Source: Gemmatimonadales bacterium (lineage in GTDB: Bacteria; Gemmatimonadota; Gemmatimonadetes; Gemmatimonadales; GWC2-71-9). From it: a DNA stretch of 64,000 nucleotides. Position numbers and translations under genes: made by a program. Positions 33,165 through 36,596 of the stretch are shown here, in pieces. Every line of letters starts with the position of its first letter. Position 1 is the first letter of the stretch. Below the pieces are notes generated by a model. The model worked only from the letters and a program-made list of their open reading frames with translations, was not told the origin of the DNA and did no database searches. Location of the stretch: assembly GCA_037189525.1 (NCBI GenBank), contig JBBCJC010000002.1, positions 64,001 through 128,000 of the forward strand. The letters are read 5' to 3'.

Positions 33165-34082
33165 TCAGCGCACGGCACCGAATCGCCTGGTACGCATGTT
33201 GAAGTACAGCAATCGAAACGGCTCGAATGCCTGGTTCCCGACGACGCCGACGACCTCCGGCGCAATCACACCCGCTGGACCGCGTACCACATGGTACACC
33301 ATTATCGGGCCTAACGAAACGGCACCGAACCGGACCGGGGCCGACGCCTGGGCGCCCACCAGCACCAGGCTGTCTCCGGTCGCCGGAAACGCGAGGCGAC
33401 GATTGGTCGGTTCGTTCCCGGTGCGCCCGGTCAGCTGCCGCCAGACCTCCGGCGTGACGATGAGCGGCGCCAGACTGGACCCCGGATCGTACCAGAGCAT
33501 ACCCAGGCGATCGCCCTGCCAGACCAGAGGCAGGGCAATGCGACCCTGCTGATCTTCGATGGCGCCCCATTCCATCCGGTCCGTCAGAGCGGCCGGCAGG
33601 GTCTGACCGGTCCTGGGTGCCCCAATCCGCTGGCCCACCTGGTCGATCACCAGCCCGCGACTGCCGAAGTACAACAGGCCGACCGTGCCGAGCTGGTAGG
33701 TTCCGTCCGCCCCGGTCGAGTCGTCCCGATTGCCCAGCCGCCCCACCCGGGCGCGAAAGATCCGATCGGCGGCGGAGGGGTCGGTCGGCAGCGGCTCCAT
33801 GGTGCGCAGCGGAATCCCGAACCGGCCCGTGGCCGAGAAGCCGGCATCGAGTTCCATCTGGACCGGGCCCAGGCTGTCGGCTGGGCCGGTGCGATTGACG
33901 AGGAGCGCCCGGTCGCTGGTTTCCACCAGCACGGCGGCGCGGGTCGCCACCTGCCGGCCGATGGTCAGTTCGGCCCACCGGAAGCGATGCCACTCCATGT
34001 CGATCGTCGGGGGCACCGTCACCGCCTGCCGCCCTCCGCAGGCAGCCGACAGCACGATGACGAGCCCCAGGATCAGGCGCAT
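33165..34082 (-). CDS. Hypothetical lipoprotein, possibly degenerate aspartyl-protease-like fold
   Basis: Lipobox SAAC; LDAG and YDPGSS resemble twin DTG motifs; GVVGN near the C-terminus. Confidence 0.6.
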   Translation of the reverse strand: MRLILGLVIVLSAACGGRQAVTVPPTIDMEWHRFRWAELTIGRQVATRAAVLVETSDRALLVNRTGPADSLGPVQMELDAGFSATGRFGIPLRTMEPLPTDPSAADRIFRARVGRLGNRDDSTGADGTYQLGTVGLLYFGSRGLVIDQVGQRIGAPRTGQTLPAALTDRMEWGAIEDQQGRIALPLVWQGDRLGMLWYDPGSSLAPLIVTPEVWRQLTGRTGNEPTNRRLAFPATGDSLVLVGAQASAPVRFGAVSLGPIMVYHVVRGPAGVIAPEVVGVVGNQAFEPFRLLYFNMRTRRFGAVR

Positions 34083-34098: not shown

Positions 34099-35526
34099 CT
34101 AGATGACGCGCTGCTTCCACCCTCCTCGTTTGAATATCATGGCACTGGCCAGGGCCAATGTCGAGAAGGCCACCGGAATGGCGATGAAGACGCCGGTCGG
34201 GCCCAAACCCGCCACCTTGGCCAGGGTGAACGCCAGAGGAATTTCCCAGAGCCAGAAGCACAGGAAGTTGAGCAGTGTCGGGGTCCGGGTGTCACCAGCG
34301 CCGTTGAAGGCGTTGGACACCACCATGCCGTAGGCATAGAACGGGAACCCGACGCTCACGATCCTGAGTCCGAGCACGGCGTACCGCGACACCTCGGGAT
34401 CGCTGGTAAAGATCGCGACGATCGACGGCGCGGCAAAGACGAAGAGCGCGCCGACCGTGCCCAGGAACCACAGGTTGAGTCGCCCTGCGCGCCAAACGGC
34501 CTCCTCGGCGCGATCGGCCTTGCCCGCACCCAGAGACTGACCCACCATGGTGGCGGCCGCGTTGCTCAAGCCCCACGACGGCAGCAGCGCAAAGAGCACC
34601 ACGCGAATCGCAATGGTGTACCCGGCAACCGCCTCCGCCCCGAACGTCGCCACGATGCGCACCAGGCCGATCCAGCTGGCCGTGCCGATCAGGATCTGAC
34701 CGATACCCGTACTCGACAACCGGAACAGCCTGGCCATCAGCGCCGGGTCGATCCGCAGGTGACGCCGCTCGATCGTGAACCGGCGATCCGCTCCTCGTAA
34801 CCGATGCAGCTGATAGAGCACCCCGATCCCGCGCCCGACCGTCGTGGCCACTGCAGCGCCCTCGACTCCCATTTCGGGAAACGGACCGATGCCGAAGATC
34901 AGCAGTGGATCGAGAATCAGATTGCACAGGTTGGCAATCCAGAGACAGCGCATCGCGACGGCCGCATCGCCGGCGCCGCGAAAAATGGCATTGATCAGGA
35001 AGAGCAGCAGGATGGCCGCGTTCCCGACGAACATGATCCGGGCAAAGCCGGTACCCTGCGCAGCGACTTCGGGGCTCGCGCCCATCAGCCGCAGCAGGTC
35101 GGTGGCAAAGATGCCGCCCACCACCGCGATCGGCACCGACACCAGCACGCCGATCAGAATCGCCTGGATGGCCGTGCGGGAGGCAGCCTCGGGGTCCTTC
35201 TCGCCGATCCGGCGCGCAACCATGGCCGTCGCGCCGATACCGAGTCCCATGCCCAGCGCGTAGATCACGCTCAGCATCGCCTCGGTCAGGCCGACGACGG
35301 CCACGGCCTCCGCACCAAGGCGGTTGACCCAGAACATGTTGACGACGGCAAAGATGGACTCGAGCGCTACTTCGAGTACCATCGGAATCGCCAGCAACAA
35401 CAACGCGGGGCGAATCGGCCCCGAGGTGAAGTCTTTTCCTTCCGCCCCCGACAGAGCTTCGCGGACGGTGTGCCACCAGCCGGGTTTCTGATTCTCCGGC
35501 ACGGGCGAAAGCGGGGTAGATGTCAT
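34099..35526 (-). CDS. MATE family efflux transporter
   Basis: LAIPM, FRGAGD, N.ILDP.LIFG....P.MGVEGAA.AT, GQSLGA, GAGDT.TP. Confidence 0.95.
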   Translation of the reverse strand: MTSTPLSPVPENQKPGWWHTVREALSGAEGKDFTSGPIRPALLLLAIPMVLEVALESIFAVVNMFWVNRLGAEAVAVVGLTEAMLSVIYALGMGLGIGATAMVARRIGEKDPEAASRTAIQAILIGVLVSVPIAVVGGIFATDLLRLMGASPEVAAQGTGFARIMFVGNAAILLLFLINAIFRGAGDAAVAMRCLWIANLCNLILDPLLIFGIGPFPEMGVEGAAVATTVGRGIGVLYQLHRLRGADRRFTIERRHLRIDPALMARLFRLSSTGIGQILIGTASWIGLVRIVATFGAEAVAGYTIAIRVVLFALLPSWGLSNAAATMVGQSLGAGKADRAEEAVWRAGRLNLWFLGTVGALFVFAAPSIVAIFTSDPEVSRYAVLGLRIVSVGFPFYAYGMVVSNAFNGAGDTRTPTLLNFLCFWLWEIPLAFTLAKVAGLGPTGVFIAIPVAFSTLALASAMIFKRGGWKQRVI

Positions 35527-35740
35527 ACCAGATCCGATCGACGGTTGATGCCGTTCGGAGGGCCCGATCAGATCAGGAGGCGCTGACTTGGACGAATGAA
35601 GGGTCGCAAGGAATGCGGTCTCGAGCGCGGATCAGTCCCTCGATTGGGATTCGAGCGCTTCGAGACCATCCCCGGCAACGGGGACAGGACTGGAAGGCGC
35701 TCAGGGTACGAGAATTGGCGTCCGCATCGATCGACTCCTT
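35527..35740 (-). promoter_or_regulatory. Structured 5' leader of the MATE gene with leader ORF
   Basis: AAGGAG (35740-35735), 7 nt, ATG 35727. uORF MRTPILVP-UGA; three hairpins; frame is continuous with the MATE ATG. Confidence 0.7.
35701..35727 (-). CDS. Leader peptide MRTPILVP (8 aa; longer if UGA is read through)
   Basis: ATG CGG ACG CCA ATT CTC GTA CCC TGA with an optimally spaced strong SD. Confidence 0.65.
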   Translation of the reverse strand: MRTPILVP

Positions 35741-35828
35741 GCTTTAAGACAGGGCCGGCATGAACCGGCCCCAGCCTTTCAACGTAACATCGGCCTCCGT
35801 CCGGCTCAAGCGACGGCTGGACTGGCCA

Positions 35829-36596
35829 TCACGCCGTAGCTCCTCCGTCGACCACCATGATGTGACCGGTCACGAAAGACGCCTGATCGCTGGCCAGGTA
35901 GAGCGCGGCCGAACCGATCTCGTGGGGCTGACCCAGATGGGAGAGCGGCTGGTCGCCCGCCAACTCCTTGGCGCGATCGGCATCCCTCCAGTAGTACTCG
36001 CTGAAATCGGTCTGGATCAGCCCGGGACAGATGGCGTTGACACGAATCCCTTTGGGACCGAGTTCGCGTGCCCAACTGCGGGTCATCATGATGAGCCCTG
36101 CCTTGGTGAAGCTGTAGAGCATCCCGCCGGGCTGCGGCTTGAGTCCCGAGATCGAGGCGATGTTGATGATCGATCCCTGCGCACCGCGCGCAATCATCCG
36201 GGGCGCGACCAGATTGACGAGGCGGAACGCCGCCAGCACGTTGACCTCGACCATCTTGACCAGCATCTCATCGGTCAGCGCCAGAATGTCGTCGTTCTGG
36301 CCGATGTTGGTGGCGCTGTTGTTGACGAGGATATCGATCGGTCCGACCTGCGCTTCGGCGCCGGCCACCACGCGTTCGAGATCGTCCTTTTTGCCGACGT
36401 GGCAGACCATCGGGACGATCCGTCCCGGCAGGTGAGCCAGCGCAGCTGCCGTGGTCTCCAGGTTGTCCCGTTTGCGCGAAGCGATCACCACCGACGCTCC
36501 CGCGGCGGCCAACGCCTCGGTAATGGCGCGACCGATCCCGCGACCGCCACCGGTAACCAGGGCAGTGCGTCCAGCCAGAGAAATCGAAACGCTCAT
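35829..36596 (-). CDS. Short-chain dehydrogenase/reductase
   Basis: [28 protein letters not shown]. Confidence 0.95.

What the first reader, a model, noticed from the sequence alone, without database searches (positions are those of the whole stretch)
35527..35740. Candidate stop-codon-readthrough sensor: leader frame with two in-frame UGA codons that continues in frame into a MATE efflux gene
Seen: on the minus strand, AAGGAG sits 7 nt before ATG 35727, which is exactly 67 codons upstream of the MATE ATG (35526). The frame reads MRTPILVP*APSSPVPVAGDGLEALESQSRD*SALETAFLATLHSSKSAPPDLIGPSERHQPSIGSG-MTSTP. Both stops are UGA (35703-35701 and 35634-35632), and the segment after the second (ETAFLATLHSSKSAPP) looks peptide-like. 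The MATE ATG itself has only a weak SD. Known: efflux and resistance genes are often controlled by leader peptides; UGA is the leakiest stop, is decoded only by RF2, and is read through more under miscoding antibiotics. Inference: ribosomes normally stop after 8 codons. Only under reduced termination fidelity would they pass both UGAs, reach the downstream element and switch on the pump, making a double-gated fidelity sensor. I do not know of a description of this architecture for MATE genes. Caveat: frame agreement alone has a 1-in-3 chance, and UGA is the commonest stop in high-GC DNA.
Basis: partly seen in the sequence, partly recalled or inferred. Interest (0 to 1): 0.9.

Follow-up and report, generated by a model that had tools for sequence, protein, structure and literature searches.

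The report
Leader mini-gene switch before MATE pump
The two in-frame UGA stops running into the MATE efflux-pump gene are a coincidence, but the 8-codon mini-gene in front of them is real and conserved, and together with a folded leader RNA it most likely forms a ribosome-sensing switch for the pump, a known kind of control.

Summary
The letters are as described: AAGGAG, ATG 35727, UGA at 35703-35701 and 35634-35632, in frame with the MATE ATG at 35526.

The double-UGA readthrough reading fails.
- In the two closest relatives the leader ATG is out of frame with MATE (-202 and -203, against -201 here).
- Single-base indels shift the frame.
- The stretch after the second UGA shows no third-position bias: variable sites [9,6,8], against [10,4,26] in MATE.

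What is conserved is a short upstream ORF (uORF) with a Shine-Dalgarno (SD) site. It has 8-15 codons, a variable peptide and a fixed length. It occurs in 19 of 24 Gemmatimonas-type orthologue leaders. A strict scan finds 13 of 24, against 0.29 in shuffles.

Its stop codon lies in an RNA segment that pairs with a downstream segment. That segment can instead pair with a third one, next to a further helix found in 14 of 14 long-type leaders.

I read this as a ribosome-dependent attenuator of the pump. Its output step and its signal remain unknown. No Rfam family matches.

This scan had already noted such an attenuator in another Gemmatimonas-type genome. It is a new member of a known kind, of moderate interest.

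The parts
35781..35809 (-). Possible promoter: TTGAGC (35809-35804), 17 nt, TACGTT (35786-35781)
   Evidence: Read. The same layout is kept in L002 and L003 (L003 has TACAAT). The tool's sigma-70 scan did not call it. Inference only.
35752..35771 (-). GC-rich hairpin GGGCCGG-UUCAUG-CCGGCCC followed by UGUCUUAAAG, between the SDR gene and the uORF SD
   Evidence: Sequence. Comparable hairpins sit at the same place in L002, L003, L006, L007, L009, L016 and L111. Its role is not tested: it could terminate the upstream gene or form a 5' stem of the leader.
35735..35740 (-). Shine-Dalgarno AAGGAG of the uORF
   Evidence: An SD-like word lies 5-11 nt before the aligned uORF start in 19 of 24 related leaders.
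35701..35727 (-). uORF MRTPILVP-stop (8 codons plus UGA)
   Evidence: Among the three closest genomes codons 1-2 are 100% invariant, codons 3-8 are only 33% invariant, and there are 0 gap columns. The length is kept but the peptide is not.
35692..35704 (-). Segment 1 (CUGAGCGCCUUCC), overlapping the uORF stop codon; pairs with segment 2
   Evidence: 100% invariant in the trio. Helix 1:2 appears in the MFE folds and in RNAalifold on 11 sequences.
35669..35684 (-). Small hairpin Pa (UCCCCG-UUGC-CGGGGA)
   Evidence: The stem is kept with different loops in the relatives. The strain variant at 35675 falls in the loop.
35651..35667 (-). Segment 2 (GGUCUCGAAGCGCUCGA): pairs either with segment 1 or with segment 3b (helix P1)
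   Evidence: The region from segment 2 to 3b is 87% invariant in the trio, more than MATE codons 1-50 at 73%.
35630..35641 (-).
   Evidence: Anchored helix 3a:4 with 11 of 12 positions paired in the window, and 7-12 contiguous pairs in all 14 long-type leaders, with different sequences.
35617..35628 (-). Segment 3b (GCGCUCGAGACC): 3' strand of helix P1 with segment 2
   Evidence: P1 forms when segment 1 is held unpaired. Duplex -31.7 kcal/mol against -22.0 +/- 3.7 in shuffles.
35606..35614 (-). AUUCCUUGC, complementary to the uORF SD region GCAAGGAGU (35742-35734)
   Evidence: Paired in the MFE fold. Found only in the L001-L003 subgroup. Its function is inferred.
35558..35569 (-). Segment 4 (GAUCGGGCCCUC): partner of 3a
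35527..35557 (-). C-rich, G-poor spacer and weak MATE ribosome-binding site (GGA at 35535-35533)
   Evidence: C-minus-G skew peaks at -75 to -45 in all 23 leaders examined (mean +0.21 at -60). This is only a hint of a Rho loading site.
34099..35526 (-). MATE family efflux transporter gene (475 aa)

Best explanation
The 300-nt gap between the SDR gene and the MATE gene encodes a ribosome-dependent (leader-peptide) attenuator.

Shown:
- A strongly initiated 8-codon uORF (35727-35701) ends inside RNA segment 1.
- Segment 1 pairs with segment 2 (35667-35651).
- Segment 2 can instead pair with segment 3b (35628-35617) to form helix P1.
- Segment 3a (35641-35630) pairs with segment 4 (35569-35558).

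Inferred:
- A ribosome on the last codons or the stop codon of the uORF covers segment 1. This favours P1 over helix 1:2 and rearranges the 3a:4 region.
- The timing or dwell of the ribosome on the uORF would therefore set the fold of the leader while it is being transcribed, and so set pump expression.
- The likely signal is translation stress (ribosome-targeting compounds) or a pump substrate that slows the ribosome.
- The output is probably premature, Rho-type transcription termination, or changed access to the weak MATE ribosome-binding site.

Which fold means ON could not be settled.
For: uORF:
- The SD and ATG align in the leaders.
- It is present in 19 of 24 distinct clade leaders. By a strict scan it is in 13 of 24, against 0.29 +/- 0.53 in 200 dinucleotide shuffles (max 3) and 1 on the reverse strand.
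- In the closest trio its interior is the most variable part of the leader (33% invariant) yet has no indel, while stop plus segment 1 is 100% invariant.

RNA:
- The leader folds better than shuffles (z = -3.55, 0 of 200 shuffles as good).
- RNAalifold on 11 sequences gives 1:2, Pa and 3a:4. 89.7% of cells are paired, against 29-55% with slid partners.
- Masking the ribosome footprint at the uORF stop switches the MFE to P1 in L001, L002, L003, L005 and L023.
- 3a:4 is present in 14 of 14 long-type leaders with different sequences.
- Subtypes with quite different sequence (L017/L112, L113, L153, L011/13, L006 type) keep the complementarity of segment 1 with segment 2.

Specificity:
- The covariance model finds exactly one copy in each of 10 of 22 genus genomes, always directly upstream of the MATE orthologue.
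- The leader is kept although the upstream neighbour differs: SDR, glmS or a divergent permease.
Against: - No expression data: no RNA run was listed, so neither transcription of the leader nor translation of the uORF is shown.
- Covariation is weak because the helices are mostly invariant: 3 pairs with changes on both sides, reached by 45 of 500 shuffles. The sequences are close kin, so the counts overstate independence.
- There is no canonical terminator in the leader.
- Modelled access to the MATE ribosome-binding site does not change consistently when the uORF end is masked.
- In L004, L008, L014 and L015 the masked fold keeps 3a:4 and does not form P1.
- Duplex energies exceed GC-rich shuffles by only about 1-4 sd, and in a few cases not at all.
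- 5 of 24 leaders lack a scan-detectable uORF, and one orthologue (L122) has no leader at all.
Confidence: 0.6

Rival explanations
1. Stop-codon readthrough sensor: ribosomes that read through both UGA codons continue in frame into MATE and switch it on.
For: In this window alone the frame is continuous and both stops are UGA.
Against: - The uORF is out of frame with MATE in L002 (-202) and L003 (-203), and in 14 of 19 leaders overall.
- There are 1-nt indels between the uORF and MATE in relatives and in a strain variant.
- There is no third-position bias after the second UGA ([9,6,8]).
- The uORF stop is UAG or UAA in 12 of 19 leaders.
- The second UGA lies in helix arm 3a.
Confidence: 0.02
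2. A ligand- or protein-binding structured leader (riboswitch-like). P1, P2 and a 3a:4 pseudoknot would form a binding fold, and the uORF would be incidental or secondary.
For: P1 with 3a:4 is topologically a possible H-type pseudoknot (my reading). The core from segment 2 to 3b is more conserved than the coding sequence. The leader is well folded.
Against: - No Rfam family matches at E up to 10 in the window or at gathering score in 20 related loci.
- The invariant columns lie in helix arms with alternative partners, not in junctions.
- This model does not explain the conserved SD-led uORF with fixed length and its stop in segment 1.
Confidence: 0.15
3. The conserved leader serves only mRNA stability, promoter or transcription-factor binding, or basal translation. 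The uORF is translated without any sensing role.
For: A conserved upstream word (TCACAGCG, then about 20 nt, then TAnnnT) and a GC hairpin precede the uORF in most relatives. The direction of regulation could not be derived.
Against: The overlap of the uORF stop with a segment that has two mutually exclusive partners recurs in subtypes of different sequence. This layout is hard to explain without ribosome-RNA interplay.
Confidence: 0.15
4. A protein-coding gene or small RNA on the opposite (+) strand explains the conservation.
For: Long + strand ORFs exist (35520-35747 of 75 aa, and 35596-35763 of 55 aa). One relative gives a protein-like reverse translation.
Against: - There is no Pfam hit.
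- The reverse frames are not conserved between close relatives such as L004 and L023, and the indels are not multiples of three.
- The G-U pair in P1 of L002 fits only the MATE-sense strand.
Confidence: 0.03

Closest known systems
toiL uORF upstream of topAI-yjhQ in E. coli (PMC12121999; abstract and outline read)
   Same: A very short uORF in a long structured 5' region. Ribosome position on the uORF alters downstream RNA structure, and the output involves the ribosome-binding site and premature Rho-dependent termination. The response is to translation stress, not to one peptide-specific signal.
   Different: No sequence or structure homology. The target there is a toxin-antitoxin operon, not an exporter. 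Here neither Rho dependence nor RBS occlusion is shown.
mdtU uORF upstream of the mdtJI spermidine exporter in E. coli (PMC7815308; passages read)
   Same: A uORF in a leader of about 280 nt before an efflux gene. uORF translation and Rho termination together set exporter expression, and the exporter's own substrate is the signal.
   Different: mdtU has 34 codons and a conserved C-terminal peptide. Here the uORF has 8-15 codons and a non-conserved peptide. The transporter family differs (SMR there, MATE here).
Leader-peptide attenuators of resistance and efflux genes in Firmicutes: bmrB-bmrCD (PMC4191407), mef/mel (PMC4335068), vmlR (PMC9226507). Only search listings and abstracts were seen, plus one passage on BmrB in PMC5417439. 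ermC is recalled from memory.
   Same: A leader ORF plus competing stem-loops. A ribosome held on the leader re-folds the RNA and induces a drug-resistance or efflux gene.
   Different: Those systems use canonical hairpin-plus-U terminators or direct SD sequestration. The tools found neither here. The transporter classes also differ (ABC, MFS and ABC-F, against MATE).
tnaC-tnaA leader of E. coli
   Same: Ribosome occupancy at the leader's stop codon is the regulated event, and C-rich RNA next to the stop is the Rho entry site. Here the stop lies in the switch segment and C-rich tracts follow it.
   Different: TnaC has a conserved sensing peptide. Here the peptide varies.

Membership tests
Programmed stop-codon readthrough / recoding element | Reading frame continuous across the stop(s) and conserved in relatives | tested here: not met
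   The uORF is in frame with MATE in 5 of 19 leaders, and L002 and L003 are out of frame. Frame-shifting indels are present.
Programmed stop-codon readthrough / recoding element | Coding signature (third-position bias, conserved peptide) downstream of the stop | tested here: not met
   Variable sites fall [9,6,8] by codon position, against [10,4,26] in MATE. In L003 the peptide is frameshifted.
Ribosome-dependent (leader-peptide) attenuator | Short ORF with its own ribosome-binding site in the 5' leader, conserved in position | tested here: met
   19 of 24 leaders. The strict scan gives 13 of 24 against 0.29 expected. The ORF is indel-free although its sequence is variable.
Ribosome-dependent (leader-peptide) attenuator | The leader ORF overlaps one arm of mutually exclusive RNA helices | tested here: met
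   The stop codon lies in segment 1, and 1:2 competes with 2:3b (P1). Support comes from conserved complementarity; statistical covariation is weak.
Ribosome-dependent (leader-peptide) attenuator | An output element (intrinsic terminator, Rho site, or SD-sequestering helix) controlled by the switch | tested here: inconclusive
   There is no canonical terminator in the leader. RBS access is unchanged in models. The C-rich tracts give only a hint of a Rho site.
Ribosome-dependent (leader-peptide) attenuator | Translation of the leader ORF and signal-dependent regulation | not testable with these tools
   No RNA run was listed. Reporter assays or ribosome profiling are needed.
Known riboswitch or cis-regulatory RNA family (Rfam 15) | Match to a curated covariance model | tested here: not met
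   Window 35300-36000 at E up to 10 gave only chance-level hits (mir-598, PrrB/RsmZ, HOTTIP). Twenty related loci at gathering score gave 0 hits.
Amino-acid-sensing attenuator (trp/his/leu type) | Run of codons for one regulatory amino acid in the leader peptide | tested here: not met
   The peptides (MRTPILVP, MRMSAVVY, MLKTAVFTSPSA and others) share no repeated codon type.

The most novel reading that the evidence does not exclude
This MATE orthogroup may carry a family of uORF-gated leaders that spans phyla (Gemmatimonadota, several Terriglobia, a Thermoanaerobaculia and some Gammaproteobacteria MAGs). In the Gemmatimonas-type leaders the uORF stop codon is built into the switch helix. The sensed quantity would then be the dwell time of the terminating or last-codon ribosome during transcription. 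That would make it a termination- or translation-stress sensor acting without a canonical terminator, probably through Rho. It would be the first leader-peptide control described for a MATE exporter and for Gemmatimonadota.
Probability: 0.3. Interest if true: 0.6.

Novelty: new member of a known kind. Interest (0 to 1): 0.4.

Why it matters
MATE exporters are a major multidrug-efflux family, and their known regulation is mostly through protein repressors (recalled from memory). My searches of the held library listed leader-peptide attenuators for ABC, MFS and ABC-F genes but none for a MATE gene or for Gemmatimonadota. If confirmed, this leader would extend ribosome-sensing control of efflux to a new transporter family and to poorly studied soil and sludge phyla. 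It would also offer a compact 8-codon model for attenuators that lack a canonical terminator. For the scan, it is a worked example of how an in-frame string of stops in high-GC DNA can mislead while the small ORF in front of it is real.

Tried and rejected
- RNA evidence: no listed holder is an RNA run. The four DNA contig sets that were laid show only strain variants, which fall in loops and linkers, plus one deletion/insertion pair.
- RBS-access modelling, with and without a ribosome footprint at the uORF stop, gave no consistent change.
- Opposite-strand ORFs: rejected because the frames are not conserved.
- A second uORF behind the GAGGUG word (a GUG start in L004, L023, L005, L010 and L015) is absent from the window and from L014, L008 and L017, so it was rejected.
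- The terminator-like hairpin inside MATE (35423-35406) is not conserved in 21 other orthologues.
- In Terriglobia orthologues (L076, L135) a hairpin starting at the uORF stop looked like a terminator to me, but the tool's scan called none.
- An nhmmer profile of the leader found no convincing match outside the clade.
- A column-wise count of P1 was not attempted, because the bulges sit at different places in different sequences. P1 rests on per-sequence duplexes only.
- The wider scan of the window for terminators (20 found against 10 expected) did not help.

Full report
**1. The observation**

On the minus strand, AAGGAG lies at 35740-35735 and ATG at 35727. The frame reads MRTPILVP*, then 22 codons, *, then 35 codons, and then the MATE start at 35526. 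The downstream gene (34099-35526) is a MATE transporter (Pfam MatE E 8.6e-62; TIGR00797). The upstream gene (35829-36596) is a short-chain dehydrogenase. About 300 nt lie between them.

**2. Testing the readthrough idea**

I collected orthologous loci from three sources:
- 41 related genomes;
- one genome per species across GTDB, whose record titles place the closest relatives in Gemmatimonas and Gemmatimonadales;
- metagenome contigs.

In the two closest genomes (93% and 91% MATE identity) the leader DNA aligns well, but single-base indels shift the frame. The uORF starts at -202 and -203, against -201 here, so it is not in frame with MATE. Translating the MATE frame upstream gives unrelated peptides in L003 and in all more distant relatives.

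Across the 19 leaders that carry the uORF, 5 are in frame with MATE, which is what chance gives. The uORF stop is UGA in 7, UAG in 10 and UAA in 2.

Variable sites in the stretch after the second UGA fall [9,6,8] by codon position, against [10,4,26] in the first 50 MATE codons. A near-identical strain in another metagenome carries a 1-nt deletion and a 1-nt insertion 19 nt apart in that stretch. The stretch is therefore not coding, and the in-frame arrangement is a coincidence of this genome.

**3. What is conserved: the uORF**

An alignment of 11 leaders lines up an SD-like word and an ATG about 165-200 nt upstream of MATE. Each starts a short ORF:

| Locus | uORF peptide |
|---|---|
| window | MRTPILVP |
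| L002 | MRMSAVVY |
| L003 | MRMRIVSH |
| L004 | MLKTAVFTSPSA |
| L023 | MPKSVDFTSLSA |
| L005 | MRMSVPTLS |
| L008 | MPKSGMFIAAIA |
| L010 | (GTG start) NPIFTTIVELF |
| L014/L015 | MWTMPVCFSQSA |
| L017/L112 | MFATPVTILGAHLA |
| L006/L007/L111 | MRM.. 12-mers |
| L011/L013 | MRM.. 15-mers |
| L012 | MSTIPFIPRRGATLG |
| L153 | MRLTMVTTA |
| L113 | MNPMISFPTIGA |

A relaxed scan finds the uORF in 19 of 24 distinct clade leaders. The other five are:
- L015, which keeps the ORF of L014 but has a changed SD;
- L009, which has an ORF without a listed SD;
- L016 and L018, which have none;
- L122, which has no leader at all.

A strict scan (ATG start, strong SD at -14 to -4, 8-15 codons) finds 13 of 24. 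Dinucleotide shuffles give 0.29 +/- 0.53 (max 3 in 200), and the reverse strand gives 1. The sequences are kin, so this overstates independence.

The pattern within the closest trio is telling:
- uORF codons 3-8 are the least conserved part of the leader (33% invariant) yet have no gap column.
- Their variable sites show no synonymous bias ([5,5,2]).
- The stop codon plus the next 9 nt are 100% invariant.

So the ORF and its end point are selected, but the peptide is not.

**4. The RNA**

The window's leader folds at -108.6 kcal/mol, z = -3.55 against shuffles. MFE folds of the orthologues repeat one architecture:
- Segment 1 (the uORF's 3' end and the following bases, core GAGCGC) pairs with segment 2 (GGUC..CGAA.GCGCUC) and encloses a small hairpin.
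- Further on, 3a (GAGGUGCC; here GAGGGACUGAUC) pairs with segment 4 (GGCACCUC; here GAUCGGGCCCUC).

RNAalifold on 11 sequences returns exactly these helices. On a model-fitted alignment of 12 sequences, 89.7% of cells pair, against 29-55% when partners are slid. Only 3 pairs change on both sides, a count reached by 45 of 500 shuffles, so the statistical covariation is weak.

Segment 2 is also complementary to 3b, just after 3a, forming helix P1. When the footprint of a ribosome at the uORF stop is held unpaired, the predicted fold switches to P1 in L001, L002, L003, L005 and L023. It does not switch in L004, L008, L014 or L015.

Helix 3a:4 has 7-12 contiguous pairs in 14 of 14 long-type leaders, with different bases beyond the GAGG:CCUC anchor. 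Leaders of different sequence keep the logic:
- L017/L112 use GGCGCGC:GCGCGCC for 1:2.
- L011/L013 use three copies of the palindrome GGCGCGCC.
- The L006 type keeps GUGAGCG:CGCUCGC.

Duplex energies beat shuffles by only 1-4 sd, and not in every case.

**5. Distribution**

A covariance model of the long-type leader hits 10 of 22 genomes of the genus. Each has exactly one hit, always next to the MATE orthologue. The remaining genomes carry the divergent leader types or lack the orthologue.

The leader persists although the upstream neighbour differs: SDR here, glmS in L009/L016, and a divergent permease in the L004 type.

Among 119 distinct, more distant orthologue loci, 17 have an SD-led ATG uORF of 6-20 codons. 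Shuffles give 3.9 +/- 1.8 (max 8 in 100), and the reverse strand gives 6. Related peptides recur in Terriglobia MAGs:
- MIILAVILA and MKILAAVLL;
- MFIPRIARWS and MFVARNPRIL;
- MFQLPTAAIR and MFQPVTVPSRLIR.

These leaders do not align with the Gemmatimonas type.

**6. The output is unresolved**

- The leader has no canonical hairpin-plus-U terminator.
- Modelled access to the weak MATE ribosome-binding site does not respond consistently.
- All 23 leaders examined share a C-rich, G-poor patch 45-75 nt before the MATE start, and many have another just after the uORF stop. This fits a Rho loading site but does not prove one.
- In the window's subgroup, the bases right after P1 (35614-35606) are complementary to the uORF's own SD. 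That would limit uORF translation to the period of transcription. This is inference.

**7. Comparison with what is known**

No Rfam family matches the window or 20 related loci.

The held literature lists leader-peptide attenuators for mef/mel, bmrCD and vmlR, and the uORFs toiL and mdtU, which act with Rho. My searches listed none for a MATE gene or for Gemmatimonadota. The search term 'mate' also matches 'material', so those listings are noisy.

This scan had already noted a 'leader-peptide attenuator before MATE pump' in another Gemmatimonas-type genome (finding e1-7738394). I saw that note only after reaching the same reading. A look-up by sequence found no look-alike stretch.

**8. Verdict**

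The readthrough sensor is not supported. The region holds a conserved uORF-plus-RNA-switch leader of a MATE pump. It is a new member of the known class of ribosome-dependent attenuators, and its signal, its direction and its output step are still open.

Noticed in passing
L004, L005, L006-L010, L014-L016, L023, L153: about 250-290 nt upstream of the MATE start. Window equivalent 35809-35781.: A conserved word TCACAGCG, followed about 20 nt later by a TAnnnT box, precedes the leader in most orthologues whatever the upstream gene. The window's subgroup has TTGAGC, 17 nt, then TACGTT or TACAAT instead. This may be the leader's promoter or a regulator site.
   Followed up: partly
window 35752-35771 (minus strand); also L006, L007, L009, L016, L111: A GC-rich hairpin with a U-rich tail lies between the -10-like box and the uORF SD. 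In some relatives it looks like a terminator of the upstream gene placed immediately before the leader.
   Followed up: no
L059, L067/L149, L159/L162, L076, L135, L077/L170, L148, L130, L078/L171, L092/L187/L190: More distant orthologues of this MATE gene (Terriglobia, Thermoanaerobaculia and Gammaproteobacteria MAGs) also carry SD-led uORFs of 9-14 codons, 105-211 nt upstream. 17 of 119 loci have one, against 3.9 expected. In L076 and L135 a hairpin begins at the uORF stop codon.
   Followed up: partly
window 35728-35734 and 35536-35543 (minus strand): The word GUCGAUCG stands just before both the uORF start and the MATE ribosome-binding site. L078 has GAGGUCGAUCGAUG at its MATE start. This is unexplained.
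   Followed up: no
window 35406-35423 (minus strand): A terminator-like hairpin plus T-run lies about 100 nt inside the MATE coding sequence. It is not conserved in 21 other orthologues, so it is probably chance.
   Followed up: yes
L006, L007, L111: upstream of the leader: Tandem 7-base repeats (GGCACTC and variants) lie upstream of the leader in three related genomes.
   Followed up: no
window 33165-34082 (minus strand): A 305-aa ORF starts 17 nt after the MATE stop and has no Pfam or NCBIfam match. It may be co-transcribed with the pump.
   Followed up: no
G014 (L023) and G013 (L024): The MATE orthologue of G014 matches in two overlapping pieces (residues 1-223 and 214-475). G013 has only a C-terminal remnant with an internal TGA. 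These are possible frameshifts, decay or assembly errors.
   Followed up: no
L122: One metagenome orthologue (76% identity over the N-terminal half) has another coding region running up to its start and no leader at all.
   Followed up: no
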